Assembly: GCA_964469605.1 (NCBI GenBank)
Contig: CAYXZA010000004.1
Coordinates: 1-37,606, forward strand
DNA length: 37,606 nucleotides
Origin: an uncultured Candidatus Saccharibacteria bacterium
Lineage (GTDB): Bacteria > Patescibacteriota > Minisyncoccia > Phycocordibacterales > DATDWN01
Direction of reading: 5' to 3'
This document shows positions 1 to 37,606 of this stretch, piece by piece (the stretch's first letter is position 1; every line of letters starts with the position of its first letter). The translations under genes and the position numbers were made by a program. The notes under the pieces are model-generated. The model was not told the origin of the DNA, searched no databases, and saw nothing but the letters and a program-made list of their open reading frames with translations.

Positions 1-99
1 ATAAATTTTTGCTAAAATTTTCCTCGTGCTCGTGCCAGTCGCACTCGCAAGTCTCTAAAATCATATTTTAGTTTTATGCACAATTAAAACTTAAAAATA

Positions 100-235
100 C
101 AAAAAACCACTGACTAAAAGCCAGGGTGGCAGGGGGGTGTTTTAGGCACCCCCCAAGGCGGAGATAGGGTTAAAAAATTTTTTCGAGTATATTGGACCCT
201 TACACCCCCGCCTATTGCCTTTGTAATATATCTTA
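100..235. other. GC-rich structured non-coding segment; nested inverted repeats ggggggtg/cacccccc and aggcgg/ccgcct
   Basis: Perfect 8-bp inverted repeat ggggggtgttttaggcacccccc (about 139-161) nested inside an aggcgg...ccgcct pairing. GC is far above the surrounding AT-rich DNA. No ORF longer than 61 aa, and the only ORF (142..327, - strand) lies inside the hairpins. Confidence 0.35.
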
Positions 236-354
236 TCATATATATAATTTTTTGTCAAATTATGTTTTTTTGACAAACTTCTTGATTTGTTTTTTAAAGT
301 GTTGTATGGATAAATTTTAGTTGACAAAAGTATGATGTTGGGTATTATTTAAAT

Positions 355-528
355 GTGACCATGACCATCGTTTGCACCTGACCGGTGGTAGCTTGAAGCT
401 ACCACCGGTCAAAAGAACCATTGCAGGGGTTGTCCTGCGAAAAAGTTTTTAACCAGCACTTAGGTGCTGGTTTCACCAGTTGGTGTTAGATAAGCCGGCA
501 TCCCACAAAGGAGCCGGCTTCATTTTTT
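355..528 (+). ncRNA. candidate small structured RNA of about 170 nt upstream of frr, with four hairpins and a terminal intrinsic terminator
   Basis: Upstream TTGACA (321-326) with a weak -10 about 17 nt later. Perfect 13-bp hairpin gaccggtggtagc/gctaccaccggtc (380-410). Hairpins gcagg..cctgc and accagcac..gtgctggt. Terminal hairpin aagccggc..gccggctt followed by TTTTTTT (about 492-528). No ORF. Confidence 0.4.
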
Positions 529-628
529 TATACAAAAAAAATGTTTTGTGTTAGAATCTATTTATAATTTTTTAAATTTTGAAAAAAGTTTGAAAAATTG
601 ATTTAAATAATATTAAAAACTAAAAAAT

Positions 629-1175: not shown

Positions 1176-2273
1176 ATGTTTATACTTTTATTTATACTAA
1201 TACTTGCTGTTTTGGTTTTTGTTCACGAACTAGGGCATTTTTGGTCTGCAAAAAAATCTGGTATCAAAGTTGAAGAGTTTGCTATTGGTTTTCCACCAAC
1301 CATTTTTGCAAAGAAGATAAGGGACACTGTTTATAAACTAAATATCATACCTTTTGGTGGTTATGTAAAGATCTTTGGAGAAGATCCAAGTGTAAACTTT
1401 GAAAACCTACCAGAGTCTGAAAAGTCTGAAAACTTTCAATATAAGTCAAAAATGACCCAAATTTTCGTTCTTGTAAGTGGTGTCCTGATGAATATTTTAT
1501 TTGCTTTTTTACTGATTTGGATTTCTTTTGTTATTGGAACTTCAACGCCTGTAAAATACAGTAGATTTTCTGAAGTTTCTAACCCAGCACTAACCATAAC
1601 CTCTGTTATGTCAGATTCACCGGCGGAAAAGTCAGGACTGAAACCACTAGACAAAGTTGTATTTGCTGAAAATAGCTCAAAGTCTTTACAAGAACCAATA
1701 GATCCTCAAAAACTAACAGAACTTATCCAAAAATCAGAAAAAATAACTTTACTTGTCAAAAGAGAGAAAACATCTGAACCTATAAAAATTGAAATAAAAA
1801 CTTCTGGAGATATTGTTTCCAATAAAAAAGCAATCGGAGTTTCTCTTGATAATATAGGTATCTTAAAATTACCTATACACAAGGCATTTGTTGAAGCTAT
1901 ATTTACAACAAAAGATATATTGGTATCTATAACTGTCGGAATATTTAAATTTCTATCTGGTGCTTTTTCTTCTTCTAGTATAAAAGATGTCTCTGGTCCT
2001 GTTGGTATAGCAAAAGTTGTTAGAGAAGCATCGGATTTAGGGATAATATATATAGTCAATCTAACGGCACTTATTTCTCTAAATTTAGCTGTTTTAAATT
2101 TATTACCATTTCCTGCACTAGATGGTGGTAGAATATTCTTTATTTTTTTAGAGGCTATAACTAGAAAAAAGATAAAGCCAAGTGTTTTGAATCTTGCAAA
2201 CGGTATTGGTTTTATAATACTAATCTCTCTTATGGTACTTGTAACTTTAAAAGACTTGAAAATATTGTTTTAG
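1176..2273 (+). CDS. rseP: site-2 protease, RseP-type M50 zinc metalloprotease
   Basis: N-terminal TM helix with HELGH motif (VFVHELGHFWSAK). Central PDZ-like region. C-terminal LDGG motif (LPFPALDGGRIFF). 2-nt gap after frr. Confidence 0.88.
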   Translation: MFILLFILILAVLVFVHELGHFWSAKKSGIKVEEFAIGFPPTIFAKKIRDTVYKLNIIPFGGYVKIFGEDPSVNFENLPESEKSENFQYKSKMTQIFVLVSGVLMNILFAFLLIWISFVIGTSTPVKYSRFSEVSNPALTITSVMSDSPAEKSGLKPLDKVVFAENSSKSLQEPIDPQKLTELIQKSEKITLLVKREKTSEPIKIEIKTSGDIVSNKKAIGVSLDNIGILKLPIHKAFVEAIFTTKDILVSITVGIFKFLSGAFSSSSIKDVSGPVGIAKVVREASDLGIIYIVNLTALISLNLAVLNLLPFPALDGGRIFFIFLEAITRKKIKPSVLNLANGIGFIILISLMVLVTLKDLKILF

Positions 2274-2311
2274 TTTAATATAATTAAAAAGAACGAGGAC
2301 ACAAACTACTT

Positions 2312-2355
2312 CTCGGGAGGACCAAGGGCACTAGACCCCCTCCCGAGCTTTTTTT
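2312..2355 (+). terminator. intrinsic terminator after rseP
   Basis: 9-bp GC stem ctcgggagg/cctcccgag followed by a run of 7 T. Confidence 0.7.
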
Positions 2356-2382
2356 GACAAAAATTTTTTTATATTATATACT

Positions 2383-2487
2383 TCAATTAACTAAGGTTGG
2401 AGGCTCACCCCCGAGCTCTCCAACCTTAAGTCCCAATCAGAGGGTGGTGTTTCTCCTCCGGATCCGTCCACCCTCGGGACTTTTTTG
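2383..2487 (+). ncRNA. candidate small RNA module S1: two GC-rich hairpins and a T-run
   Basis: TTGACA at 2354-2359 with an AT-rich -10-like tattat/tatata. Hairpin ggttggag/ctccaacc (2396-2425). Hairpin gagggtgg/ccaccctc (2440-2476), then gggacTTTTTT. No start codon in the segment. Confidence 0.4.
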
Positions 2488-2559
2488 TTTATAACAATTT
2501 TTACGGTATTGTAGACTTTTAAAATTTGACAAAAAAACTATTTGGTGATAGTGTTTATA

Positions 2560-2658
2560 TAAACAAGGAGCTGAATTGCCCCAGCTCCTCGGCGAAAAAT
2601 GTGGTGGGCCATCTCTCAAAAATCTTCTCTCGGCCCACCACATTTTAGCTGTTTTTTT
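2560..2658 (+). ncRNA. candidate small RNA module S2: two GC-rich hairpins and a T-run
   Basis: TTGACA at 2526-2531. Hairpin ggagctg/cagctcc (2567-2588). 13-bp hairpin aatgtggtgggcc/ggcccaccacatt (2598-2644), then a T-run (2651-2657). The overlapping - strand ORF 2437..2643 is probably an artefact of the GC-rich hairpins. Confidence 0.4.
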
Positions 2659-2769
2659 GTATAAATTTTTTAATTTCTAAACTAAATTATAGCTTTGACT
2701 GGCTGTTTTTTTTGTTATAAAAATTATCAGTATGTTTTCAGTATATATAGAAAAAAGTGGTATAAACAC

Positions 2770-2797
2770 TTGACATTTTTTTTAAATCATTTATAAT
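2770..2797 (+). promoter_or_regulatory. sigma70-like promoter TTGACA-16-TATAAT driving module S3
   Basis: Exact TTGACA (2770-2775), 16-nt spacer, exact TATAAT (2792-2797). Confidence 0.6.
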
Positions 2798-2804
2798 ATA
2801 CTTA

Positions 2805-2913
2805 TCTATCGATCGGCTCTTGGTTTAAACCCTCTTTGCCGGTCGTCAGGGCGAGATGTGTCCCTCCTTGAAGAAGAGTTCGCTCTTACTTCGGACCTCT
2901 TGCCCTGTTTTTT
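2805..2913 (+). ncRNA. candidate small RNA S3 (about 108 nt), or a structured leader upstream of proS
   Basis: Begins about 8 nt after the TATAAT box. Stem cgatcgg/ccggtcg. Inner hairpin agag-ttcg-ctct. Closing 10-bp stem cagggcgaga/tcttgccctg with one G-U pair, then TTTTTT (2908-2913). No ORF. About 95 bp upstream of proS. Confidence 0.45.
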
Positions 2914-3008
2914 ATTCTAGAAATATCCTATTTACTTATAAGTAGCCTAAGATTTTTACTTTTATCCAAAAATTGCTTTTAAGGTTTTTTTAATATAAGA
3001 TTATTTCT

Positions 3009-4250
3009 ATGAGACAAAGCAAACTTTTTACTAAAACAAGAAAAGAGGCACCAAAAGACGAGGTGTCAAAAAATGCAGAACTTCTTATTCGTGCAGGATT
3101 TGTTTACAAAGTAATGGCTGGTGTATATGCCTATACACCACTTGGATTTCGTGTTATTGAAAAAATAAAACATATAGTGCGTAAAGAGATGGATGCGGTT
3201 GGAGGGCAAGAACTTATTATGACAAATCTTCAAAGAAAGGATACATGGGAAAGTACTAATCGTTGGAGTGACTCTTCTGTTGATGTGTGGTTTAAGACAT
3301 CATTACAAGATGGAACCCCTATTGGACTTGCATGGAGTCACGAAGAAGCAATTATGGAAATGATGCAGCATTTTATAAGTAGCTATAAAGATTTGCCTAT
3401 AAGTGTTTATCAATTTCAAATTAAACTTCGTAATGAATTACGTACAAAAAGCGGTATTATGCGAGGAAGAGAGTTTTTAATGAAAGATATGTATTCACTT
3501 CATGCTACAAAAGAAGATATGGATCAATTTTATGATAAAGTAATTGAGGCATATAAAAAGATATATAACCAACTTGGTATAGGAGAAGATACATTTGTTA
3601 CATTTGCAAGTGGAGGTGCATTTACAAAATTTAGTCACGAATTTCAAACAATTTGTCCTGCAGGTGAAGATAAATTATATATAAATCAAAACAAGACAAT
3701 TGCTGTTAATGAAGAGGTTTTAGATGATGCAAGCAGAGAAATAGGCGTGGATAAAGAATCACTCACACCTGTTGTAAGTGCTGAAACTGGAAATATTTTT
3801 AAATTTGGTACTGATAAAAGTGAGAAGATGAAAATTTTTTATAAAGATATTGACGGCAATAATCAACCAGTATATTTGGCATCATATGGTATTGGTATTA
3901 CAAGAGTAATGGGTGTTATTGTGGAAAAGTATAGTGATGAAAAAGGTATCATTTGGCCAGAATCTGTTGCTCCGTTTAAAGTTCACCTGCTTTCTTTGGG
4001 AAATGATCCAAAAGTTTCTTTTGCCTGTGATGTTTTGTATGAAAAATTAAATAATCTGGGTATAGAAACTTTATACGATGACAGGGAAGTTAGAGCAGGA
4101 GAAAAATTTGCAGATAGTGACCTTTTAGGTATTCCTTGGAGGGTTATTGTCTCTGAAAAAAATCTTTCATCTGGCAAAATAGAAGTTAAAAAAAGAAACG
4201 AAGAAAATTCTACTATTATGGATGAGAGTGATTTTTTGAAGATTTTTTAA
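3009..4250 (+). CDS. proS: prolyl-tRNA synthetase, short form without the bacterial insertion/editing domain
   Basis: 413 aa. N-terminus KLFTKTRKE..ELLIRAGFV..GVYAYTPLGFRV is characteristic of ProRS. Class II core motifs present, and a C-terminal anticodon-binding-like domain. Confidence 0.85.
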   Translation: MRQSKLFTKTRKEAPKDEVSKNAELLIRAGFVYKVMAGVYAYTPLGFRVIEKIKHIVRKEMDAVGGQELIMTNLQRKDTWESTNRWSDSSVDVWFKTSLQDGTPIGLAWSHEEAIMEMMQHFISSYKDLPISVYQFQIKLRNELRTKSGIMRGREFLMKDMYSLHATKEDMDQFYDKVIEAYKKIYNQLGIGEDTFVTFASGGAFTKFSHEFQTICPAGEDKLYINQNKTIAVNEEVLDDASREIGVDKESLTPVVSAETGNIFKFGTDKSEKMKIFYKDIDGNNQPVYLASYGIGITRVMGVIVEKYSDEKGIIWPESVAPFKVHLLSLGNDPKVSFACDVLYEKLNNLGIETLYDDREVRAGEKFADSDLLGIPWRVIVSEKNLSSGKIEVKKRNEENSTIMDESDFLKIF

Positions 4251-16723: not shown

Positions 16724-16752
16724 TTGACAAATTTTTTAGTTTGGATTATAAT
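16724..16752 (+). promoter_or_regulatory. exact consensus TTGACA-17-TATAAT element in the trxB-ftsZ spacer
   Basis: TTGACA 16724-16729, 17-nt spacer, TATAAT 16747-16752 on the + strand. The attataat core also reads as a -10 on the - strand for trxB. Confidence 0.4.
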
Positions 16753-16780
16753 AGTAATTGAAGTGCTCTTTGTTCATCGC

Positions 16781-16823
16781 AGCCGGTCTCCTACCTTTTG
16801 GTGGACTTTGAGACCGGCTCTTT
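16781..16823 (+). terminator. GC-rich hairpin with a T-run between ftsZ and trxB (+ strand terminator geometry)
   Basis: agccggtctc...gagaccggct, a 10-bp stem, followed by cTTTTTaTTTT on the + strand. Confidence 0.45.
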
Positions 16824-18002
16824 TTATTTTCCTCTATTTCTTCTAAGAAAAGCTGGAACAGCACCCCACTCATCGTCCTCTTCAACAGCGACATTTTTCT
16901 TTTCTTCTTCCGGTTTTGCTGTATTTACATTTACAGGAATAGAATTGTAAATTCTAGTATCCTCTTCTTTTTCTCTTTCTCTTGTAACAAATGTTTCTTT
17001 TTTAACCTCTTTTACTTCATCTGGGAAAATAGACTTTTTCTGGTTTTGATCTGCAAAATTTGAAGCAATAACAGTTATCTTAACCTCTCCTTTTTTAAGT
17101 GACTCGTCTCTAAATGCTCCAAATATAATCTTTGCATTTGGATCCGCAGACTCTGTTATTATTTTAGCAGCATCTTGTATTTCAAACATTGTAAGATCAT
17201 CTCCACCTGCAATAGAGAACAGAACACCTTTTGCTCCATTCATTGAAACTTCCAAAAGAGGGGAGTTAATAGCCATTCTAGCTGCTTCTTCTGCTCTTTT
17301 TTCACCTGTTGAATATCCTATACCCATAAGAGCAGGCCCAGCATTGTGCATAACAGCTCTGATGTCAGCGAAGTCTATATTTATAATACCAGGAGTTGTT
17401 ATGAGATCTGATATACCAACAACAGCTTGTTTTAAAATATCATCACACATACCAAAAGCATTTTTAGCTGTGGTTTCTTTGCTTATTGTTGAAAGTAGTC
17501 TGTCGTTTGGAATAACTATGATAGCATCAACAGCTTGACGAAGTTCATCTAGTCCACCTTCTGCAAGTCTCATCCTTTGTTGACCTTCAAAAAAGAAAGG
17601 TTTTGTAACAACGGCCACAGTTAAGGCATTCATTTCTTTTGCTATACGGGCGATTATAGGAGAAGCACCAGTTCCTGTCCCACCACCAAGTCCTCCTGCT
17701 ATAAAAACCATATCAGCACCCTTTATAGCTTCTTGTATTTCTTCTTTTGTCTCTTCAACAGCTCTTTTTCCAAGCTCTGGGTTCATACCAGTTCCAAGAC
17801 CTCTTGTTAGATTCTTACCTATGTGTATTTTTTTCTTTGCAAGAGAATGATGAAGATCTTGAGAATCAGTATTTACAGCAATAAAGTCAACTCCTTTGAC
17901 TTTGCTGTTTATCATATGGTTCAAAGCATTTTTTCCAGAACCACCAACTCCGACAACTTTGATTCTTGCAAATGCTTCTACTTCTGGTTTTATTTGTGGC
18001 AT
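16824..18002 (-). CDS. ftsZ: cell division GTPase FtsZ
   Basis: GGGTGTG tubulin signature, NTD..IGVGGGG, T7 loop region. Charged, repetitive C-terminal tail. Confidence 0.95.
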   Translation of the reverse strand: MPQIKPEVEAFARIKVVGVGGSGKNALNHMINSKVKGVDFIAVNTDSQDLHHSLAKKKIHIGKNLTRGLGTGMNPELGKRAVEETKEEIQEAIKGADMVFIAGGLGGGTGTGASPIIARIAKEMNALTVAVVTKPFFFEGQQRMRLAEGGLDELRQAVDAIIVIPNDRLLSTISKETTAKNAFGMCDDILKQAVVGISDLITTPGIINIDFADIRAVMHNAGPALMGIGYSTGEKRAEEAARMAINSPLLEVSMNGAKGVLFSIAGGDDLTMFEIQDAAKIITESADPNAKIIFGAFRDESLKKGEVKITVIASNFADQNQKKSIFPDEVKEVKKETFVTREREKEEDTRIYNSIPVNVNTAKPEEEKKNVAVEEDDEWGAVPAFLRRNRGK

Positions 18003-21860: not shown

Positions 21861-22454
21861 ATGAAATTTATTATTTTTGGATTAGGAAACCCAGGATCAG
21901 AATACGAGAACAATAGGCACAACACTGGAAGGATAATAATTAAAAATATTGCAAGCTTGTTTGACTGTGAAGATTTTGAAGTTGATAAAAATATAAATGC
22001 AGATAAAACTTCTGTAAAAATGCCTAAAAATTCTATATCTTTTATTCTGCCAAATACTTTTATGAACAAAAGTGGTGATGTTTTAAAGAAAATGAAGTTA
22101 GAGAAAAAAGACTCTAAAAATATTATCGTGGTATATGATGATCTTGACCTTCCTTTTGGTAAGATGAAATTTTCTTTCAATAAATCATCTGGTGGACACA
22201 AAGGCTTAGAATCAATAATCAAATCAATAAAAACAGAAGAGTTTTATAGAATAAGAGTAGGTATATCAAAAACCACACAAGCTGGAAAAATTAAAAAACC
22301 GAAAGGACCAGAAGATGTCATTTCTTATGTGATGAAAAATTTTAATGAAGATGAGCTAAAAGAGTTAAAAAAAATATCAAAAAAGATTAAAGAGGGAATT
22401 GAGGTTTTTACAAAAGAAGGTTACGAAAAAACAGCAACTTTTTTAAACAGTTAA
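21861..22454 (+). CDS. pth: peptidyl-tRNA hydrolase
   Basis: MKFIIFGLGNPGSEYENNRHNTG, the canonical Pth N-terminus. The ORF track begins at 21777 and would overlap the divergent lepB start, so the ATG at 21861 is the more plausible start. Confidence 0.88.
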   Translation: MKFIIFGLGNPGSEYENNRHNTGRIIIKNIASLFDCEDFEVDKNINADKTSVKMPKNSISFILPNTFMNKSGDVLKKMKLEKKDSKNIIVVYDDLDLPFGKMKFSFNKSSGGHKGLESIIKSIKTEEFYRIRVGISKTTQAGKIKKPKGPEDVISYVMKNFNEDELKELKKISKKIKEGIEVFTKEGYEKTATFLNS

Positions 22455-22501
22455 TCAAAAAACCACCTTGCTGGGTGGTTTTTTGATATTTCCTTTGTAA
22501 A

Positions 22502-23674
22502 TTACTTCTTCTCTACAAAAGAAAGAGTCATTTTTTGTTCTTTTGGATCAAATAATGTGATTTTGAAATCATATCTTTTACCCAATTCTAGTTTTTCTCT
22601 TAGTTTTTCTTCGCTACCAAATTCTGATATATGAACAAGACCAGCAACCCCTTCCTCTATAGATGCCAAAGCTCCGTGTTTATTAAACTTGATAACAACA
22701 GCTGGAACAATATCATCTTTTTTGTATTTAGCAGAAGCACTTTGCCAAGGATTTTCTTTCAAAGCTTTAACAGAAAGAGATATTTTTCCGTCTTTTATTT
22801 CTATTATTTTCGCTTTTATTTTTTCTCCAACATTAAATAACATTTTCAAGTTATCTACAAGTGCCCAATCTACCTCTGAAATATGCACCAAGCCTTCCAA
22901 ACCTTCCTCTATTTTGACAAAAAGACCAAAATCAACAATACCTGTAACTTCTCCTGAGATAACATCTCCAACTTGATACTTGTCTGTCATATTTTCTTTG
23001 ACCTTCTCATTTGAACTCTTTTCAGAGAAAATAAGTTTACCTTCTTTTGGTGATGCACCTATTATAGATACAGCAATTTTTTGACCAACAAACTTTTTTA
23101 ACTCTTCTAAAATTCTATCTTTATCTCCATCTGAAACTCTAGGATAGTGTTCTGTTTTTAACTGTGATGCTGGCAAAAATCCAAGTATACCTTGCCAAGA
23201 AAGCATAAGACCCCCTTTGTTTGCATCAGAAACATTTAGCTCAAAGATTTTACCATCTCTTATGGCATCTTCTGCTTCTGTCCAGATAAGTGCTTGTCTA
23301 GCTTCTTTTAGAGATATCTCATAGTATCCATCTTCATTTGATATTGAAATAACCTTACCAGCAATAGAATCACCGATGTTTATCTTTTTTATAATATCTC
23401 TGGCACTTATATACTCTTTACCAAAAATAATACCTGTTCCGAAAGGTTTTACATCAACATAAACAGCATTTTTATCTAAACCAATAACAGTTCCTTCAAC
23501 AATATCATCAACATTTGGTGGAGTTTTTGAATCCGCCAATATTTTGTTCATAATACTAGAAGTCACTACTGGCTTTTTATCATCAACTTCTTCGTTAATA
23601 TTTGTTTTTTTAATTTCGTCTGACATTTTTTTATAATGAAAAAACGATCCGAGGCTTTTTGAAAAAAATTTCAT
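22502..23674 (-). CDS. rpsA: 30S ribosomal protein S1 (short, four S1 domains)
   Basis: Repeated S1-domain signatures (G..V.G.V..I..FG.FV.I..G..GL.HISE) four times. An alternative start exists at 23626 (MSDEIKK). Confidence 0.78.
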   Translation of the reverse strand: MKFFSKSLGSFFHYKKMSDEIKKTNINEEVDDKKPVVTSSIMNKILADSKTPPNVDDIVEGTVIGLDKNAVYVDVKPFGTGIIFGKEYISARDIIKKINIGDSIAGKVISISNEDGYYEISLKEARQALIWTEAEDAIRDGKIFELNVSDANKGGLMLSWQGILGFLPASQLKTEHYPRVSDGDKDRILEELKKFVGQKIAVSIIGASPKEGKLIFSEKSSNEKVKENMTDKYQVGDVISGEVTGIVDFGLFVKIEEGLEGLVHISEVDWALVDNLKMLFNVGEKIKAKIIEIKDGKISLSVKALKENPWQSASAKYKKDDIVPAVVIKFNKHGALASIEEGVAGLVHISEFGSEEKLREKLELGKRYDFKITLFDPKEQKMTLSFVEKK

Positions 23675-23754
23675 AAAAGTTTAGCTCAAATCTACAAACT
23701 TATAATAGGACTATTGTATAATAAAAAGCCCCTAAAAGCAACTAACCCTATGTG

Positions 23755-25839
23755 TTAAAATATGTCTGCCAAAACATCTCCTATAAGGCTGTCCACGTCA
23801 ACACCTTTGCCATTTTGAAGATCTGTAATCTTATTAGCCAATTCTTTATGTAATTTTATTAAAACTTCGTCTTCAGTTGTTAAACTATCGCCAATAAATT
23901 CTTGACATAATTTATGCATTTTTATCTTTGCTCTAGATGTATTCCATAATTCTACATAAACAACAAGCCAATTTTTATTTGAAATTCCATCTCTTAAAGA
24001 TTTATACTGTGATTCAATATAACTTCTTAACCCTGTTATTATCCCCAATAATCTACTCGGATTATCTTTAGAATCAAGTGGCTCTACTCTTAACACTTCT
24101 TCTATTTCTCTAACTTTTTCCATTTGGACTGAAGCAATTTGTATGTGCATGCTTTTCAAGTTTAAAATTAAACTTTTTATTAAAGCCAAATCTTCTGTTA
24201 ATGCTCTGTGAGCCTCCGCTGTCATAATTCTTTGATTCTCAGCAGGATGTAAAGGTTTATTTGGTTTATCTATAGGCCTTGCTTCTCTTGGTTTTTCTGG
24301 CACTTTCGGTGGCTCAATATTTTCAACTGGACTCGCCATCCTTGCAAAAGCAGCCGCCATACTGCCAGATTGAACACTAAAACCAACTCTTGGAACATGC
24401 ACATCCCTCTCATTTTCTCTATCTATTTTTTCCAACTCATCTTTTATTTCTAAAAGATTTTTTTCTGCCCTGCTAAAATTCGGAGTTTGATTTGGCATAC
24501 AATACCCCCCTTTACCTTCTAAAATATCTTTAGCCTCAAGCCATTTTGTACTCAATTCTAAAAACCTTCCCTCAGTAATTATGCCTCGAGAATCAAAAAG
24601 ATTTGCTTTCAATTTTAGTGCCACAAGTTCACCAACTTCTGTTTTCAAAAGTAAAATCGCATCTCCTTCTAATGGCACACTATTAGGATTTCCATGCTCC
24701 ATAAAATACCAAAAATCGTCTTCTCTTTGTTTTAAAAATTGCTTTTTCTCTGAATCAACCTCTTCAGAAATTTTTCCTGTATTATCAAACTCTGGCTCTC
24801 CTCTAAATGCTTTATATAATTCAGCAATATGCATACTTGGACAATCAGCTCGTTCATATGAAATCCCCCACTTTTGGTTAGAGCTATAACCACATCTATC
24901 TTTTAAAAACTGTAAAGCTTGAGGGGATAAATTTCCAGACCAAGATTTCCAAGTTTTCCAATCACCAGTCAATAACCAAACAGCTTCTTGCTCTATATGT
25001 TCTTTATATTTTCTTTGACCTCCATAAAATTTAACTTTTTCTTCGTCGTGTATGAATGCAGTTAATTCTTTTTTATTTCTATTTGATAACTCTTCCGCAT
25101 GATACTCCCTTACAGTTTTACCTTTAGGATCACCTTGTCCCGGAAGTCTATTCCATTCATTGTCACCACCTAACACAGTATTTACTTTTTGTCTTTCTTC
25201 AACATATTTTGATAACTCATCCAAAAGTCCACCTTTAATATCTTTTAATAATTGAGCAGCGGAGCGAATATCAGGCTTGTTTTCAGTAACCGCTACCGTC
25301 CTTGCTGGACGCATGCCATCAGGCGATTCTCCAAAACTTTCCATAGAATTCCTTGTTATGTTTCCGCTTAATTGAATGTCCGGCATTCTACCTCTTTCCA
25401 TCTCTTTGCCTATTAAAAATAATTCACAGGTATCAGAAATTGGCTCAAATTTATTGGTTTTTATATTGTATCTTTCCCTTGGCTTATAAGCATAGCCTTT
25501 GGGAAGATCGTGGGCATTTTTTACCCCAACCCCATTAAGCCAAGTGCTTATAATACCTGCAAATTCATGAGCAAAAATCTGCACCTCTAAAGTATAACGT
25601 TCTGGTTCTTTTTCATATCTTCCAACCAAACTTTCAATACCCGCTTGCGGATTTTCTTGTTCTTTCATAAACCTCTTTACTACTGGATAATATATTTTAG
25701 AAATACTTGCATCTGATTGAAAAAATTCTCCTAAAGGCTGGTAATCTGGCTTACGAAAAAGTGTTTTTTCCGGTGAAGTAGGATTTTTTATATCTCCAGC
25801 ATTAAAAAAAGTATTTGATTCATTAAAAGGTCTGGACAT
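23755..25839 (-). CDS. large hypothetical protein (694 aa), Trp- and charge-rich, no recognisable family
   Basis: Long uninterrupted ORF. Noticeably higher GC than neighbouring genes. No motif known to me. Divergently arranged to the MBL-fold gene. Confidence 0.6.
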   Translation of the reverse strand: MSRPFNESNTFFNAGDIKNPTSPEKTLFRKPDYQPLGEFFQSDASISKIYYPVVKRFMKEQENPQAGIESLVGRYEKEPERYTLEVQIFAHEFAGIISTWLNGVGVKNAHDLPKGYAYKPRERYNIKTNKFEPISDTCELFLIGKEMERGRMPDIQLSGNITRNSMESFGESPDGMRPARTVAVTENKPDIRSAAQLLKDIKGGLLDELSKYVEERQKVNTVLGGDNEWNRLPGQGDPKGKTVREYHAEELSNRNKKELTAFIHDEEKVKFYGGQRKYKEHIEQEAVWLLTGDWKTWKSWSGNLSPQALQFLKDRCGYSSNQKWGISYERADCPSMHIAELYKAFRGEPEFDNTGKISEEVDSEKKQFLKQREDDFWYFMEHGNPNSVPLEGDAILLLKTEVGELVALKLKANLFDSRGIITEGRFLELSTKWLEAKDILEGKGGYCMPNQTPNFSRAEKNLLEIKDELEKIDRENERDVHVPRVGFSVQSGSMAAAFARMASPVENIEPPKVPEKPREARPIDKPNKPLHPAENQRIMTAEAHRALTEDLALIKSLILNLKSMHIQIASVQMEKVREIEEVLRVEPLDSKDNPSRLLGIITGLRSYIESQYKSLRDGISNKNWLVVYVELWNTSRAKIKMHKLCQEFIGDSLTTEDEVLIKLHKELANKITDLQNGKGVDVDSLIGDVLADIF

Positions 25840-25924
25840 ATATAATATATATATTAAAATTTTCTATATATAAATTATAAATATTCTTTATTTAAAAATC
25901 AAATTTAAAAAAGATAATAAAAAT

Positions 25925-25953
25925 TTGACAAAAATATTGCAATATGCAATAAT
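25925..25953 (+). promoter_or_regulatory. promoter-like element TTGACA-17-AATAAT
   Basis: TTGACA 25925-25930, 17-nt spacer, AATAAT 25948-25953. A GC-rich hairpin begins about 5 nt downstream. Confidence 0.4.
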
Positions 25954-25957
25954 GACT

Positions 25958-26052
25958 GTGTCACCTTAACTCTGGGGGAGGAGAGGTGACACACAGCCCG
26001 GATAGCTCAGAGGTTACCACGCACGGCCTCTTTGCTTCCGGGCTTGAACTTT
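25958..26052 (+). ncRNA. candidate small RNA or leader: a GC hairpin plus a tRNA-5'-half-like hairpin
   Basis: Hairpin gtgtcacc/ggtgacac (25958-25992). Then GCCCGGA-TAGCTCAGAGGTTA...TCCGGGC (25996-26043): its first about 22 nt look like a tRNA acceptor plus D-arm, but the element is only 48 nt. Followed by T-rich sequence. Confidence 0.35.
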
Positions 26053-26095
26053 TTAAAAAATTTAACTTTTTTTATTTCTTTGTTATAATAGATGT

Positions 26096-26734
26096 ATGAT
26101 AATTACACATCACGGAGTAGATTCATTTAAAGTTTCTTTTGGGGAAACTGTTATATCCATAAATCCAGTCTCAAAAGATTCTGATTTTAAAAGTAGTCGT
26201 TTTGGAGCAGATATTGTTTTGATATCTAGCAATGACACAGAACACAATGGAGCCGAAAATAATTTAAGACAAGACAAAGAAACATTTATAATATCCGGCC
26301 CAGGAGAATATGAAGTTTCTGGTATTTTTATAAAAGGATTTTTATCTAAAACAAATTACAAAAAAGAAGATGGGGTAAATACAGTTTACACTATCTCTAT
26401 GGAAGGTATGAACCTTGTATTTTTAGGTTCGCTTAGTGAAAACACTTTAAATTCAGAAGTTAAAAAAGCTACTGAAAACTGCGATATTTTGTTTTTACCA
26501 ATAGGTGCGGATGGGGTTTTAGATCCTTCTACTGCACAAAAAATAGCAGTTCAGTTTGAACCTAGAATCATCATACCTAGTCATTTTGGTCAAATAGGCG
26601 AAAAAGGTTGTCTTGAAAAATTTCTGAAAGAATCAGGAGGTGAAAAAGCTCAAAGACTTGAAAAACTGACCATAAAGAAAAAAGATATAGAAACAATGGA
26701 AGGTGAAGTTATAGTTTTAGAACCACAAATTTAA
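26096..26734 (+). CDS. metal-dependent hydrolase, metallo-beta-lactamase fold (UPF0173-like)
   Basis: MIITHHGVDSFKV start and overall pattern typical of small MBL-fold hydrolases. TGnTATAAT extended -10 at about 26073-26081. Confidence 0.65.
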   Translation: MIITHHGVDSFKVSFGETVISINPVSKDSDFKSSRFGADIVLISSNDTEHNGAENNLRQDKETFIISGPGEYEVSGIFIKGFLSKTNYKKEDGVNTVYTISMEGMNLVFLGSLSENTLNSEVKKATENCDILFLPIGADGVLDPSTAQKIAVQFEPRIIIPSHFGQIGEKGCLEKFLKESGGEKAQRLEKLTIKKKDIETMEGEVIVLEPQI

Positions 26735-27016
26735 ATGTTTTTTAAATATTTAGAAAAAATAAGAAATCTGGGTGAAAAAAATAAAAAAATTATAGCTTTC
26801 TTTTTGTCTTTATTTTTAACTGGGGTTATTTTTGTATTTTGGCTTGTATTTTGGCTTCCAAATGATTTAAATAGGGTAAAACATCAAAACAAGAGTTTCT
26901 CAAAAGAAGAAAGTCCACTTGACACTATTAAAAAACAATTTTCTACAATATCCGAACAGTTTAAAGATATAAGAAAAAATTTATCTGGAACAGTTGAGTA
27001 TTCTCAATCTAAATGA
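26735..27016 (+). CDS. small single-pass membrane protein, hypothetical
   Basis: 93-aa ORF with one hydrophobic helix. Start abuts the previous stop. Confidence 0.4.
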   Translation: MFFKYLEKIRNLGEKNKKIIAFFLSLFLTGVIFVFWLVFWLPNDLNRVKHQNKSFSKEESPLDTIKKQFSTISEQFKDIRKNLSGTVEYSQSK

Positions 27017-27059
27017 AAATAGACTAAAATTATACTTTTTGATAAAATAATCAAACATT

Positions 27060-29516
27060 ATGGCAAAAAAAGAAGAAAATGTAGATAAAATAGAGAAAGT
27101 TTCTGTTATACAACAAGAAATAACATCTGAAATGAGAGCTTCATTTATAGATTATGCTATGTCTGTAATAACAGACAGAGCACTTCCTGATATACGAGAC
27201 GGTTTAAAACCTGTTCACAGAAGGATACTCTATGCTATGCACGAACTCAGTCTTACTTTTGGAGCAAAATCAAGAAAATCAGCAGCCGTTGTTGGAGAGG
27301 TTTTGGGTAACTACCACCCACACGGAGATGTTGCTGTTTATGATTCTATGGTAAAAATGGCTCAAGATTTTACAATGAGATATCCTCTTATATTGGGCCA
27401 AGGAAACTTTGGTTCTATAGATGGTGACAATGCCGCAGCTATGAGGTATACAGAGGCAAAAATGTCAAAACTTTCATCTGAACTTCTTCGTGATATTGAA
27501 AAAGAAACAGTTGATTTTGTTCCAAACTATGACGGAACAAAGAAAGAGCCGAAAGTTTTACCAACATCTGTTCCAAACCTACTCTTAAATGGAACTTTGG
27601 GAATTGCTGTTGGAATGGCAACAAATATTCCACCACACAATCTAACAGAAGTTTGTAGTGCAATAGAACATCTTGTAGAGGATAAAGATGCAACAACAGA
27701 AGACTTATTGAAATTTATAAAAGGACCGGATTTTCCAACAGGTGGTCTTGCTTTCAATCAAAAAGATATATCTCATGCCTATACAACAGGAAGAGGAGGT
27801 GTAGTTGTTCGTGGTGAAGCGGAAATAGTTGAGACAAAAGCTCGTCAATTTCAAATCATTATAACTTCTATACCTTACAGAGTAAACAAATCAGACCTTT
27901 TGATAAAAATAGCTGATCTGATAAGAGAAAAAAAGATAGAAGGGATAAAAGGAGTTGTTGACCTTTCAACAAAAGACATAAAAATAGTTATAGACTTAAA
28001 AAATGGAAGTCATCCACAAAATATACTAAACCAGTTATACAAACACACACAACTAGAAGATAAATTTCACTTTAACCTAGTGGCACTAGTAGATGGTGTT
28101 CCTCAAACACTTTCACTTAAAAATATTCTTGAGGAGTTTATATCTCACAGAAAGATAGTTATAAAAAGAAGAACAGAGTTTGATCTAAAAAAGGCACTTG
28201 AAAGAGAGCATATTCTTTTAGGTTTGAAAAAGGCGATAGATCATATAGATAGGATAATAAAACTAATTAGAGCATCAAAAGATGTTGTTGAAGCACACAA
28301 AGAACTCAAAGCGGAGTTTGGATTTTCTGATATTCAAGCAACAGCTATACTTGAAATGAAATTGCAAAGACTTGCTGGATTAGAAAGAAAGAAAATAGAA
28401 GATGAATTGAAAACAGTTCAAGAACTTATTGCTAAATTAAAAGAAATTTTAGCTAATCCAAAAAAAATATTGTCTATAATAAAAGATGAAATAAAAGAAA
28501 TAAAAGAAAAATACGGTGATGAAAGAAAAACAAAGATAATAAAAGGTGGTGCTCAAATATTAAATCAAGAAGATCTCATACCAAACGAAGAAAATGCTTT
28601 GGTTTTGACTTCTGGTGGATATATAAAAAGAACAGATCCGTCAGAATTTAGAACACAGAAAAGAGGAGGTGTTGGTGTTGTAGATTTGGACACAAAAGAT
28701 GAAGATTTTGTAACTCATCTTTTGATTTCAACAACACATAGCGATCTGTTGTTTTTCAGTAACAAAGGTAAAGTTTATCAAATCAAAATGTATGATATTC
28801 CAGAAGGAAAGAGAGCCACAAAAGGAAAATCTATAATGAACTTTTTGCCACTAGTAGATAATGAAAAAATAACTTCTATACTACCTATGAACAAAGAAGT
28901 TAAAGCATCAGAAGTCTCCTTGATGATGGTTACAAAAAATGGAGTGGCTAAAAAAGTAAAAGCTGAAAGTTTTCACGATGTTAGAAGCTCTGGTATCATA
29001 GCCATAACCCTAGAAGGTAACGACGAGCTAGTCAGTGCATCTTTTGTTAAAAAAAGTGACACAACTATTATAGTTTCAAGTAAGGGTCAAGCTATACATT
29101 TCAAAGAATCAGATATAAGAGAGATGGGTAGAACTGCTATGGGTGTCAGAGCAATAAAACTTTCAAAAGGAGATTTTGTTGTCTGTGCTGAAACTGTATT
29201 GAAAGATTCAAATTCACCAACACTTATGATTATGTCATCGAACGGATTTGGAAAAAGAACTGATATAGATGAATACAAGATTCAAAAAAGAGGTGGAAGC
29301 GGTATCAAAACAGCCAAAGTTACATCAAAAACAGGTGTCCTTATAGGAGCAAAAGTTTTTGAAGGAAATGAAGGGGAAGTTGTAACTATGTCTCAAAAAA
29401 GTCAGGTTATTAAAGTCAATATAAATGAGATACCAACTCTCGGCAGACAAACACAAGGAGTTAGAATAATGAAACTAAGAGAAGGGGATTTGATCGCATC
29501 TATGGTTTGTCTATAA
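27060..29516 (+). CDS. gyrA: DNA gyrase subunit A (type IIA topoisomerase A subunit)
   Basis: [21 protein letters not shown] (catalytic Tyr region), and a C-terminal beta-pinwheel with QKRGGVG (GyrA-box-like) repeats. ParC cannot be fully excluded. Confidence 0.85.
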
Positions 29517-29529
29517 AAAAAGAGGGTGG

Positions 29530-29994
29530 TTAGCCCTGCTCTTTCATCTCCTCTGCATCTTTTTTCTCTTCATTTATCATTTCTTCATAACATCCACCTA
29601 AATTACCACAAAATATTCTGACAGCATCATTAGGATCATCATATACTAAATCTTCTGGCAAATTAACATAACAAATATTTTTATTAGGAAAATTTAAAGC
29701 AAAAAAATCTGAAAAAAGTTGCAATTCACAATCTTTCTTGTGTTCAAAAAAGACAATAATCATCCTATGCCAATTACAACTTCTCGTAATTTCAACAATT
29801 TCTCTTCTACAAAACTCCAATCTGTTATTTATAGCCACCACAAATAATGTATCAGGATCATTTATCTCATTCGAAAATCTAAAAACTTCCTCAAGAAAAT
29901 GAAATTTAATATAGTTTGGAACAGAAGAAATAATCTGTTCATAAAATTCAGTAGAGATTATTTGGACTTTCATATCTAAAAACAATAATTGCAT
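29530..29994 (-). CDS. hypothetical protein
   Basis: 154-aa ORF with several Cys/His. No recognised motif. Convergent with gyrA. Confidence 0.4.
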   Translation of the reverse strand: MQLLFLDMKVQIISTEFYEQIISSVPNYIKFHFLEEVFRFSNEINDPDTLFVVAINNRLEFCRREIVEITRSCNWHRMIIVFFEHKKDCELQLFSDFFALNFPNKNICYVNLPEDLVYDDPNDAVRIFCGNLGGCYEEMINEEKKDAEEMKEQG

Positions 29995-37456: not shown

Positions 37457-37485
37457 TTGACAGAAAAAATATTCTGATATATACT
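37457..37485 (+). promoter_or_regulatory. sigma70-like promoter TTGACA-17-TATACT
   Basis: TTGACA 37457-37462, 17-nt spacer, TATACT 37480-37485. Confidence 0.5.
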
Positions 37486-37492
37486 TTATTTA

Positions 37493-37606
37493 GGTGGGAG
37501 TTGAGCACTAAAGTGCCGTGCAAGTTGATGGACTCGTCCATTCAGAGACTTGCAGATCCAAAACAACTCCCGCCTAAAATTATAAGAAGGTGCCCACAAG
37601 GCACCT
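37493..37606 (+). ncRNA. candidate structured small RNA or riboswitch-like leader; the terminator hairpin runs to the window edge
   Basis: Closing stem ggtgggagttg/caactcccgcc (one G-U). Encloses hairpin gcactaaagtgc and stem gcaagt..acttgc around ggactcgtcc. Followed by aaggtgcccacaaggcacc hairpin at the window end. No ORF. Confidence 0.45.

What the first reader, a model, noticed from the sequence alone, without database searches (positions are those of the whole stretch)
23755..26095. 694-aa Trp-rich protein of unknown family with locally raised GC, next to a promoter-driven hairpin and tRNA-like fragment
ORF 23755..25839 is the largest non-housekeeping gene in the window. Its GC content is visibly higher than that of the flanking rpsA and pilin-like genes. 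The protein is rich in Trp, Pro and charged residues (for example DWKTWKSWSG and EDDFWYFMEHGNP). It contains no motif I can assign: no Walker, HExxH, DxD or nuclease signature. Immediately upstream on the opposite strand lies a promoter-like TTGACA-17-AATAAT, then a GC hairpin, then a 48-nt element whose first 22 nt (GCCCGGATAGCTCAGAGGTTA) mimic a tRNA acceptor stem plus D-arm and close with the complementary TCCGGGC. Partial tRNA copies are typical scars of integrative elements, and compositional deviation points the same way. This may be a laterally acquired gene of novel function.
Basis: partly seen in the sequence, partly recalled or inferred. Interest (0 to 1): 0.7.

Follow-up and report, generated by a model that had tools for sequence, protein, structure and literature searches.

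The report
Acquired orphan gene beside small hairpin RNA
A real 694-residue protein gene of an almost unique, undescribed family has been dropped into a fast-changing gap between core genes of a tiny-genome (CPR/Parcubacteria) bacterium, and the "tRNA-like scar" beside it is one of several promoter-plus-hairpin small-RNA units in this genome, not an integration scar.

Summary
The ORF (23755-25839, minus strand, 694 aa) is real, intact, soluble and has its own promoter. It matches nothing in Pfam, NCBIfam, PHROGs, PADLOC, PDB sequences, phage or plasmid records. Only three relatives exist among about 15 billion proteins.

All 11 related Parcubacteria loci keep rpsA | MBL-hydrolase-DUF7299-gyrA synteny but lack the gene. 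Against the closest relative, a 2,322-bp segment (23729-26050) replaces 145 bp. That spacer holds different cargo in almost every lineage.

Total GC is only mildly raised (34.5% against 30.0 +/- 3.3%) and Trp content is ordinary. Synonymous codon usage, however, is the strongest outlier of 35 genes (z = 10.9). Lateral gain is therefore well supported.

The tRNA-scar idea is not supported. There is no cloverleaf, no Rfam or ARAGORN hit, no flanking repeat, no integrase and no copy elsewhere.

The promoter, two GC-rich hairpins and T-run form a stand-alone unit of about 95 nt. At least five similar ORF-less units occur in the same window, plus one cut by the window end. Its second hairpin sits where relatives carry a terminator, just before the conserved, probably leaderless MBL promoter.

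The protein's function remains unknown. The model shows a conserved, charged N-domain and a helical-bundle C-domain with no informative fold match.

The parts
23729..26050 (.). Window-specific segment of 2,322 bp. It replaces 145 bp of the closest relative's rpsA|MBL spacer.
   Evidence: Local alignment to L002: homology ends at window 23728 (L002 5807) and resumes at window 26051 (L002 5953). No relative has ORF694 by tblastn.
23755..25839 (-). ORF694: intact gene for a soluble 694-aa protein of an undescribed four-member family.
   Evidence: ORF listed. Relatives are P0002 (39% identity, E 2.8e-112), P0003 and P0004. No Pfam, NCBIfam, PHROG, PADLOC or PDB match. No transmembrane segment: maximum Kyte-Doolittle 19-residue score 1.2. 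Codon-usage z = 10.9.
24430..25752 (-). N-terminal conserved domain, about aa 30-470. It is alpha/beta and carries many invariant charged residues and motifs: DLPxGYAY, DGMR, YVExRQ, PGxGxP, DWxT, AFRxxP, DFW.
   Evidence: Invariant columns in the alignment of P0001, P0002 and P0003. P0003 consists of this domain alone. The AF2 model has pLDDT 70-86 for residues 60-220 and lower values elsewhere.
24253..24408 (-). Pro/Lys-rich linker, aa 478-529. It is predicted disordered and is expanded by about 150 residues in P0002.
   Evidence: pLDDT below 50 for residues 478-529. Sequence. The insertion in P0002 is visible in alignment A1.
23758..24252 (-). C-terminal helical-bundle domain, aa 530-694.
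25874..25902 (-). Promoter-like site for ORF694, TTGATT-17-TATAAT, about 35 nt upstream of the ATG.
   Evidence: Consensus scan, 10 of 12 positions.
25925..25953 (+). Near-consensus extended -10 promoter, TTGACA-17-TGcAATAAT, driving the hairpin unit. It lies back to back with the ORF694 promoter.
   Evidence: 11 of 12 positions with TG. It is one of nine sites in the window with at least 11 of 12 matches, against about 2 expected by chance.
25957..25993 (+). Hairpin 1, with 11 + 4 base pairs. Its 3' arm is a strong Shine-Dalgarno-like GGAGGAGAGGUGA, paired to UCACCUUAACUCU.
   Evidence: MFE structure. The sequence is unique in the window.
25995..26044 (+). Hairpin 2, with 8 + 3 + 7 base pairs. 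Its outer stem GCCCGGA/UCCGGGC and following UAGCUCAG copy a tRNA acceptor stem and D-arm 5' side. It has no T-arm and no anticodon arm. It sits where relatives have a terminator.
   Evidence: Fold. ARAGORN and Rfam are negative. Relatives have GCCCG...CGGGC-T-run terminators at the same place. The same 15-mer starts tRNA-like sequences in L016, L018, L020 and L024.
26045..26055 (+). Interrupted U-run (UGAACUUUUU) after hairpin 2. This is the probable 3' end of an RNA of about 95 nt.
   Evidence: Sequence. The strict terminator scan does not call it, because the loop is longer than 8 nt and the T-run is interrupted.
26062..26089 (+). Conserved promoter of the MBL-fold hydrolase gene, TTAACT-16-TGtTATAAT. 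It ends 6 nt before the ATG at 26096, so the mRNA is probably leaderless. It belongs to the conserved flank, not to the inserted segment.
   Evidence: Consensus scan. A -10 box in the form TGnTAtAAT or TGnTAtACT is conserved 6-12 nt before the ATG in 10 of the 11 relatives; L012 has only TGATAAT.

Best explanation
**Shown: the gene and its setting**
- ORF694 is a genuine accessory gene that this Parcubacteria/Paceibacterota lineage has and its relatives lack.
- It lies in the rpsA | MBL-hydrolase spacer, which is a cargo hot spot. Relatives carry there unrelated small membrane-protein ORFs, a zinc-ribbon ORF, a GNAT acetyltransferase gene or nothing.
- The gene has its own promoter and the most deviant synonymous codon usage in the window.
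- Its family has four members in about 15 billion proteins, on contigs of different GC content with unrelated neighbours.

**Inferred: how it got there**
- It arrived by horizontal transfer, probably from a higher-GC CPR relative.
- The route was probably homologous recombination in the conserved flanks (cassette replacement). An integrase acting on a tRNA is unlikely.

**Inferred, low confidence (about 0.25): what the protein does**
- It is cytoplasmic.
- Its N-domain, with a dozen invariant Asp/Glu/Arg residues, is a catalytic module.
- Its three-helix-bundle C-domain mediates oligomerisation or partner binding.
- A sporadic, stand-alone gene in a hot spot most resembles conflict (defence or counter-defence) or host-interaction cargo.

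**Anatomy shown, transcription inferred: the neighbouring element**
- The 'hairpin + tRNA-like' element is a separate unit of about 95 nt: a near-consensus extended -10 promoter, two GC-rich hairpins and a U-run.
- Hairpin 2 occupies the position where relatives have the terminator of their cargo gene. There it shields the conserved, probably leaderless MBL promoter from read-through.
- The unit is one of at least six ORF-less promoter-hairpin(s)-T-run units in the window, so it reflects a genome-wide style of small structured RNA gene.
- Its 15-nt identity to a tRNA 5' end is real. It reflects a tRNA-derived or tRNA-mimicking stem, not an attachment-site remnant.
For: **Synteny**
- All 11 relatives keep MBL-DUF7299-gyrA-MTase-SBP-pilins, 10 of them with rpsA on the other side of the spacer (L012 is cut there), and none has an ORF694 homolog.
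- The segment boundaries are 23728/26051.
- Cargo in the spacer varies between lineages.

**Composition**
- Codon-usage z = 10.9, against 5.6 or less for the other 34 genes.

**Rarity and patchiness**
-.
- Homolog loci L014 and L015 share no neighbours with the window or each other. Their GC contents are 38% and 49%.

**Real protein**
- 39% identity over the full length to P0002, with many invariant motifs.
- No transmembrane segment.
- Two-domain model.

**RNA unit**
- Promoter matches 11 of 12 positions with TG.
- Fold z = -6.5.
- Relatives' terminators and the conserved -10 box sit just before the MBL ATG.
- L002 has a different two-hairpin element with a terminator at the same spot.
- Other units in the window are at 321, 2354, 2528, 2770, 16724 and 37457. 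They are 44-51% GC in a 30% GC genome, with fold z of -4 to -8.5.
Against: - Total GC and GC3 of ORF694 lie within about 1.4 sd of the window's genes. Acquisition is therefore not very recent, or the donor was similar in composition.
- No mobility gene, repeat or other mechanistic trace of transfer is present.
- All three homologs may also sit in CPR genomes. Ancient presence with repeated loss is not strictly excluded.
- There are no expression data for the RNA unit and no homolog for covariation. The U-run is interrupted and the strict terminator scan does not call it.
Confidence: 0.6

Rival explanations
1. Integrative-element scar. A mobile element carrying ORF694 integrated at a tRNA gene, and the 48-nt element is the leftover partial tRNA copy.
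For: - 15 nt (GCCCGGATAGCTCAG) are identical to the start of tRNA-like sequences seen in L016, L018, L020 and L024.
- TAGCTCAG is rare in the window.
- The element lies inside the window-specific segment.
- ORF694 has deviant codon usage.
Against: - No cloverleaf or T-arm; ARAGORN and the Rfam tRNA model are negative.
- No direct repeat lies at the other end of the segment.
- There is no integrase or other mobility gene.
- No relative has a tRNA in this spacer.
- The 21-mer is absent from metagenome contigs, and a gapped pattern built on its first 15 nt found nothing related on viral contigs.
- Integration scars are 3' tRNA fragments, and this is a 5' fragment (established knowledge).
- The outer-stem position matches ordinary terminators in relatives.
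Confidence: 0.06
2. Vertical inheritance with loss. ORF694 is an old CPR gene that most lineages have lost and that this lineage kept in the rpsA|MBL spacer.
For: - The homolog hosts may also be CPR. L014 comes from the same sample as L027, a ProRS locus 74% identical to the window's, and has similar GC.
- The GC of each homolog is close to that of its contig.
Against: - The gene is absent from all 11 syntenic relatives, including the closest.
- The homologs sit in unrelated contexts.
- Codon usage is the strongest outlier in the window.
- The spacer holds unrelated cargo in nearly every lineage.
Confidence: 0.1
3. The hairpin unit is a decayed cassette shell, not a functional small RNA. It would be the promoter, ribosome-binding site and terminator left after the former cargo ORF was deleted.
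For: - In seven relatives a promoter, a Shine-Dalgarno-bearing ORF and a GCCCG...CGGGC terminator occupy exactly this place.
- Hairpin 1 contains a strong Shine-Dalgarno-like GGAGGAGAGG followed by GUG.
- No homolog of the RNA was found anywhere.
Against: - The promoter is still near-consensus with TG. The hairpins are perfect and much more stable than shuffles. Decay would erode both.
- Several more ORF-less units of the same build occur in the window, four of them in tandem at 2256-2915. Serial deletions are an unlikely explanation for that.
Confidence: 0.2
4. The hairpin unit is a cis-acting leader or attenuator of the MBL-DUF7299-gyrA operon. Transcripts from 25925 would either stop at hairpin 2 or read through. 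It might also encode a 37-codon GUG ORF (25986-26099) whose TGA overlaps the MBL ATG.
For: - It has the same orientation as the MBL gene and lies 50 nt upstream of it.
- Hairpin 1 sequesters a Shine-Dalgarno-like sequence, and hairpin 2 is a weak terminator.
- The GUG frame is open up to an ATGA overlap with the MBL start (reading).
Against: - The MBL gene has its own conserved -10 box 6-12 nt before the ATG in the window and in 10 of the 11 relatives (L012 has only TGATAAT). No leader is therefore needed.
- The unit is absent from every relative.
- The matching frame in L002 is closed by a TAA (reading).
Confidence: 0.1
5. ORF694 and the divergently transcribed hairpin RNA form a functional protein-RNA pair, for example a tRNA-mimic-binding or RNA-guided accessory system.
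For: - Their promoters lie back to back, 23 bp apart, inside the same acquired segment.
- The RNA carries a tRNA-like stem.
Against: - The two other family loci with flanks have no similar RNA and share no neighbours.
- The protein has no recognisable RNA-binding or nuclease domain.
- Similar RNA units occur elsewhere in the window without such a protein.
Confidence: 0.04

Closest known systems
ORFan / accessory cargo genes in chromosomal hot spots between conserved core genes (the logic of integration hot spots and defence islands)
   Same: - The gene is stand-alone with its own promoter.
- It sits in a spacer whose content differs in almost every related genome.
- Its distribution is patchy and its codon usage deviates.
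   Different: - No integrase, recombinase, repeats or neighbouring known defence genes are present.
- There is no PADLOC or PHROG match.
- The flanks are essential genes (rpsA, gyrA).
Partial tRNA copies at borders of tRNA-targeting genomic islands and prophages
   Same: A stretch identical to a tRNA acceptor stem plus D-arm 5' side lies next to an acquired gene.
   Different: - It is a 5' fragment closed by its own 3' acceptor strand.
- There is no second copy, no intact tRNA at the other border and no integrase.
- It does not fold as a cloverleaf.
GC-rich small structured RNA genes in AT-rich genomes, and intrinsic terminators
   Same: - A 54% GC island lies in a 30% GC genome.
- It has a strong promoter, perfect hairpins and a trailing U-run.
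- It sits where relatives have a plain terminator.
   Different: - It matches no Rfam family.
- Hairpin 2 has an 18-bp interrupted stem and an interrupted U-run, unlike a textbook terminator.
- No target or partner is known.
HgcG (Pab40) archaeal H/ACA RNA, Rfam RF00064: the only Rfam hit below E = 0.01
   Same: Both have an AT-rich lead-in followed by two GC-rich hairpins, and an ACA follows hairpin 1.
   Different: - The score is 21.3 bits against a gathering score of 77.
- Bacteria lack the H/ACA protein set (established knowledge).
- I treat the hit as an architecture-level chance match.

Membership tests
tRNA gene or pseudogene | Cloverleaf detectable by a tRNA finder | tested here: not met
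   ARAGORN finds 0 genes in the whole window.
tRNA gene or pseudogene | Match to the Rfam tRNA covariance model | tested here: not met
   No tRNA hit at gathering score, nor at E <= 10 on 25800-26150.
tRNA gene or pseudogene | Acceptor stem plus U8-A9 and the D-stem 5' strand (GCCCGGA-UA-GCUC-AG) | tested here: met
   Exact at 25996-26010, with closing TCCGGGC at 26037-26043. The same 15-mer starts tRNA-like sequences in L016, L018, L020 and L024.
tRNA-targeting integrative element / genomic island | Integrase or recombinase gene inside the segment | tested here: not met
   The segment holds only ORF694, which has no Pfam or NCBIfam domain. Its neighbours are core genes.
tRNA-targeting integrative element / genomic island | Direct repeat of the tRNA fragment at the other border | tested here: not met
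   No relevant direct repeat in 22400-27100. The 21-mer is unique in the window even with 3 mismatches allowed.
tRNA-targeting integrative element / genomic island | Intact target tRNA at the site in this genome or in relatives | tested here: not met
   No tRNA was found in the four relatives scanned (L002, L003, L010, L011), and none is evident in the 200 nt upstream of the MBL gene in any of the 11 relatives. The rest of this genome was not available.
tRNA-targeting integrative element / genomic island | Compositional deviation of the cargo | tested here: met
   Codon-usage z = 10.9. Bulk GC is only +1.4 sd.
Rho-independent terminator (for hairpin 2) | GC-rich stem with a short loop, followed directly by a U-tract | tested here: inconclusive
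   The stem is GC-rich and positionally equivalent to relatives' terminators. The stem is long and interrupted with a 9-nt loop, the tail is UUGAACUUUUU, and the scan does not call it.
Known anti-phage defence systems (PADLOC-DB 2.0) | Match to a model of a known or candidate defence protein | tested here: not met
   0 families for P0001. Only E of about 0.02 noise for P0002 and P0003.
Any Rfam 15 RNA family (for the hairpin unit) | Score at or above the family gathering threshold | tested here: not met
   No hit in the window. The best sub-threshold hit is HgcG, 21.3 against 77 bits.
Any described protein family or solved fold (for ORF694) | Significant sequence-profile or structural match | tested here: not met

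The most novel reading that the evidence does not exclude
ORF694 founds a new enzyme family confined to CPR bacteria and acts as a mobile single-gene conflict or host-interaction module. In addition, the six-plus promoter-driven GC-rich hairpin RNAs in this 37-kb window, one of them carrying a tRNA acceptor/D-arm mimic, represent an unrecognised, fast-evolving class of small regulatory RNAs that is unusually dense in these tiny genomes.
Probability: 0.15. Interest if true: 0.7.

Novelty: new member of a known kind. Interest (0 to 1): 0.38.

Why it matters
- CPR/Patescibacteria genomes are small, and roughly half of their genes have no assigned function.
- This case shows how such a genome gains novelty: a single hot spot between essential genes swaps cargo from lineage to lineage without any visible mobility machinery.
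- The protein family is essentially unsampled, with four sequences in about 15 billion. It has a well-conserved charged core that could be tested as an enzyme.
- The density of ORF-less promoter-hairpin-terminator units may be more broadly useful. It suggests that small RNAs are a substantial and unannotated part of the regulatory repertoire of these organisms.
- As it stands, the finding is an ordinary kind of thing, an acquired ORFan next to a small-RNA or terminator unit. It is not a new mechanism.

Tried and rejected
**ORF694: searches that gave nothing useful**
- Word-index homology search with the single protein and with the family profile returned only the query itself.
- A viral-contig scan with the two-sequence alignment found no relative.
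- tblastn against phage and plasmid records found no match.
- The single-sequence AF2 model was unusable (pLDDT 36).
- The four-sequence model (pLDDT 61) gave no informative fold match.
- The afdb50 library was not available.
- I looked for a PD-(D/E)xK-type reading of D111...E139. I dropped it because no Lys is conserved.

**Hairpin unit: candidates rejected**
- Rfam at gathering score and at E <= 10 gave nothing usable.
- SRP RNA, 6S RNA, Y-RNA, T-box and H/ACA RNA were rejected for lack of any score or of the partner proteins.
- TIGR-Tas arrays came up in a literature search (PMC12045711). I did not pursue them: the hairpins are not repeats, and Pfam reported no domain of any kind in ORF694.
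- blastn and nhmmer of the unit against all related loci, L014 and L015 gave only chance hits.

**Collection scans**
- Scans for the 21-mer, for hairpin 1 and for a gapped 'mini tRNA' pattern were run.
- The nine hits are coding-sequence coincidences, a masked real tRNA, or an unrelated phage tRNA-like element.

**Other**
- tblastn of the relatives' spacer ORFs against the window found no remnant of them.
- A literature search for the assembly accession found nothing.
Full report
**What the window is**

The window has 30.4% GC. It carries a run of core genes: frr, rseP, proS, mreB, mreC, a PBP2-type transpeptidase, mltG, trxB, ftsZ, ftsA, ybeY, lepB, pth, rpsA, gyrA and a cluster of T4SS-pilin-like genes.

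The nearest loci in a species-level genome collection are MAGs labelled Parcubacteria, Paceibacterota, Zambryskiibacteriota or Patescibacteria. The same protein is encoded on an NCBI contig, GCA_013558375.1 JACCDG010131965. That contig differs from the window at 5 of 16,341 positions, none of them in the region of interest.

**Checking the observation**

It lies on the minus strand, encodes 694 aa and contains the quoted peptides.
- The + strand promoter TTGACA-17-AATAAT is at 25925-25953. It matches 11 of 12 positions and has a TG extended -10.
- Two stable hairpins follow it, at 25957-25993 and 25995-26044. Their MFE is -51.6 kcal/mol, against -29.4 +/- 3.4 for shuffles (z = -6.5).
- The tRNA-like 21-mer is at 25996-26016 and is unique in the window.
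- The composition claims are weaker than stated.
  - GC is 34.5% against 30.0 +/- 3.3%. GC3 is 21.9% against 18.5 +/- 2.9%. ftsZ has higher GC.
  - Trp is 1.58%, which is ordinary for this window.
- A resampling test of synonymous codon choice makes ORF694 by far the most deviant of 35 genes.
  - Its z is 10.9. The next gene has 5.6 and most have 2.4 or less.
  - GCG, GGC, GGG, CCG, GTG, AGC and TTA are over-used.
  - CTA, ATC, AAC and GTC are under-used.

**The protein**

- It has no match in Pfam, NCBIfam, PHROGs, PADLOC, PDB sequences, phage records or plasmid records.
- An exhaustive HMMER pass over 1.84 billion cluster representatives found three relatives.
  - P0002 has 851 aa, is 39% identical and aligns over the full length, with a roughly 150-residue insertion in the linker.
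  - P0003 has 442 aa and covers the N-domain only.
  - P0004 has 121 aa and is a C-domain fragment on a 562-bp contig.
- Each relative is a singleton cluster.
- The alignments show many invariant motifs: DLPxGYAY, DGMR, YVExRQ, PGxGxP, DWxT, AFRxxP, DFW, AKDILEGKGGY and IESQYK. The gene is therefore real and under constraint.
- It has no hydrophobic segment, so it is most likely cytoplasmic.
- AlphaFold2 with the four-sequence alignment gives mean pLDDT 61.
  - The C-terminal helical domain (530-694) is confidently modelled.
  - The N-terminal alpha/beta region is moderately modelled.
  - The Pro/Lys-rich linker (478-529) is predicted disordered.
- The function is therefore unassigned. My working guess is a catalytic N-domain with an oligomerisation or partner-binding C-domain, serving an accessory conflict or host-interaction role. 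This is inference from the distribution and the conserved charged residues only.

**Synteny**

I used the adjacent MBL-fold hydrolase as an anchor and obtained 11 related loci.

- All keep MBL-DUF7299-gyrA-methyltransferase-SBP-pilins, and 10 of them keep rpsA on the other side of the spacer; L012 is cut just upstream of the MBL gene. None has a homolog of ORF694 by tblastn.
- In the closest relative, L002 (GyrA 85% and RpsA 87% identical), rpsA and the MBL gene are 303 bp apart.
- Local alignment places the homology breakpoints at window 23728 and 26051. A 2,322-bp segment therefore replaces 145 bp of L002. It holds ORF694, its promoter and the hairpin unit.
- The spacer is a hot spot.
  - L003, L005, L006, L007/L008 and L009 each carry an ORF for a small protein with an N-terminal hydrophobic segment; these are mutually unrelated except for the L007/L008 pair.
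  - L006 also has a GNAT acetyltransferase.
  - L010 has a zinc-ribbon ORF.
  - L004 and L011 have a minimal spacer.
- The two homolog loci with flanks share no neighbour with the window or with each other.
  - L014 has 38% GC and may be another CPR genome, since it comes from the same sample as the ProRS relative L027.
  - L015 has 49% GC.
- Lineage-specific lateral gain is the best reading of absence, patchiness and codon usage taken together. No integrase, repeat or other trace of the mechanism is visible. I therefore infer recombination in the conserved flanks.

**The hairpin and 'tRNA-like' unit**

- The resemblance to a tRNA 5' end is real at the sequence level.
  - GCCCGGATAGCTCAG is also the start of tRNA-like sequences recovered elsewhere.
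  - TAGCTCAG is expected only 0.66 times in the window.
- Nothing else about the element is tRNA-like or scar-like.
  - There is no cloverleaf and no ARAGORN or Rfam tRNA hit.
  - There is no flanking repeat.
  - No tRNA was found in the four relatives scanned (L002, L003, L010, L011), and none is evident in the 200 nt upstream of the MBL gene in any of the 11.
  - The 21-mer is absent from metagenome contigs, and hairpin 1 is absent from viral contigs.
  - A gapped 'mini-tRNA' pattern, run on both the viral and the metagenome contigs, gave nine unrelated hits.
- Two comparisons change the picture.
  - First, seven relatives have an ordinary GCCCG...CGGGC-T-run terminator exactly where hairpin 2 lies. 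That terminator ends their cargo gene and comes just before the MBL -10 box. The -10 box has the form TGnTAtAAT or TGnTAtACT in 10 of the 11 relatives (L012 has only TGATAAT) and lies 6-12 nt from the ATG, implying a leaderless mRNA. L002 has a different two-hairpin element with a textbook terminator at the same spot.
  - Second, the window holds nine promoter sites matching at least 11 of 12 positions, against about 2 expected, and all nine are on the + strand.
- Besides the unit of this finding, several of those promoters drive no ORF. Instead they drive GC-rich (44-51%) perfect hairpins ending in a T-run.
  - Their positions are 321-530, 2354-2490, 2528-2660, 2770-2915 and 16724-16830. One more, at 37457, is cut by the window end.
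  - Their fold z-scores range from -4 to -8.5.
  - None matches Rfam.
  - The four-unit tandem array in the rseP-proS gap is absent from a syntenic relative, where rseP and proS are 45 bp apart.
- The unit next to ORF694 is thus one example of a genome-wide style of small, fast-evolving, promoter-driven structured RNA unit. Here it doubles as the insulator in front of the MBL promoter.
- I cannot tell from sequence whether it is a working small RNA, a leader, or the shell of a lost cassette. I give rival probabilities for these readings. I favour a working small RNA or terminator unit, because promoter and stems are intact and the architecture recurs.

**Verdict**

- The tRNA-scar mechanism does not hold.
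- In kind the finding is ordinary, an ORFan in a hot spot beside a small-RNA or terminator unit. The extreme rarity of the family and the density of unannotated hairpin RNA units give it moderate interest.

Noticed in passing
window 2256-2915 (rseP|proS gap): Four promoter-like sites in tandem, each followed by one or two GC-rich hairpins and a T-run, with no ORF. Promoters are at 2256, 2354, 2528 and 2770; the last matches 12 of 12 positions. The first hairpin may simply be the rseP terminator. Loops of units B, C and D carry CU-rich anti-Shine-Dalgarno-like motifs (CCUCC, CUCCUU, CUUCUCUC). The last unit may be a proS leader or attenuator. The array is absent from syntenic relative L025, where the rseP-proS gap is 45 bp.
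   Followed up: partly
window 321-530 (+) and about 95-260 (-): Upstream of frr, a promoter at 321 drives an RNA of about 170 nt with four perfect hairpins and a terminator. On the opposite strand a TTGACA...TAAGAT promoter-like site precedes another GC-rich structured stretch (fold z = -3.9). Neither matches Rfam.
   Followed up: partly
window 16724-16830 (+): A perfect-consensus promoter (12 of 12) followed by a hairpin and T-run lies between trxB and ftsZ, both on the minus strand. The unit is therefore an ORF-less + strand unit lying between two minus-strand genes.
   Followed up: no
window 37457-37606 (+): Another promoter matching 11 of 12 positions drives a long GC-rich hairpin RNA (z = -7.3) that is cut by the end of the window.
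   Followed up: no
window, whole: All nine promoter sites matching at least 11 of 12 positions are on the + strand, and none is on the minus strand. I have no explanation.
   Followed up: no
window 26062-26098 and the same place in L002-L012: The -10 box of the MBL-fold hydrolase gene ends 6-12 nt before the ATG, with no Shine-Dalgarno sequence, in the window and in 10 of the 11 relatives (L012 has only TGATAAT). It has the form TGnTAtAAT or TGnTAtACT. The mRNA for the MBL-DUF7299-gyrA block is therefore probably leaderless.
   Followed up: partly
window 29530-29994 (-): A 154-aa ORF without Pfam domains lies between gyrA and the methyltransferase gene. It is absent from the closest relative L002. 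L004 has an unrelated 206-aa ORF there. This looks like a second variable spot.
   Followed up: no
window 3009-4250 (+): The prolyl-tRNA synthetase gene is the second codon-usage outlier (z = 5.6). Its best database relatives are only 74-76% identical, and those that carry a source name are labelled Moranbacteria. GyrA, by contrast, reaches 85% identity to L002. This may point to a different history for proS.
   Followed up: no
window 25986-26099 (+): A 37-codon GUG ORF, preceded by GGAGGAGAG, runs through hairpin 2 and the MBL promoter. It ends in a TGA that overlaps the MBL ATG. The matching frame is closed in L002, so the ORF is probably not real (reading).
   Followed up: partly
window 22502-23674 (-): The mechanical rpsA ORF has 390 aa, but the public record aa, starting at MSDEIKK. 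The 5' leader sequence (GAGCUAAAC...GCCUCGGAUC) is conserved with L002.
   Followed up: no
L016 3826-3885 (-), L018 2073-2132 (-), L020 9932-9991 (-): Viral and metagenome contigs carry a 60-nt tRNA-like element with acceptor stem, D-arm and T-arm but no anticodon arm. ARAGORN did not call it on L016, the only one of the three scanned. The flanking sequence is conserved among the three contigs.
   Followed up: no
L014 and L027: The N-domain-only homolog P0003 and a ProRS 74% identical to the window's come from the same sample (ERZ12298642), on contigs of 37-38% GC. They may belong to the same CPR genome. P0003 there follows a 379-aa protein with weak methyltransferase-like hits.
   Followed up: no
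NCBI GCA_013558375.1, contig JACCDG010131965: The contig serial number (about 132,000) suggests a very large mixed or host-associated assembly. Two near-identical contigs carry the region, with 5 differences in 16 kb. No paper mentioning the accession was found.
   Followed up: partly
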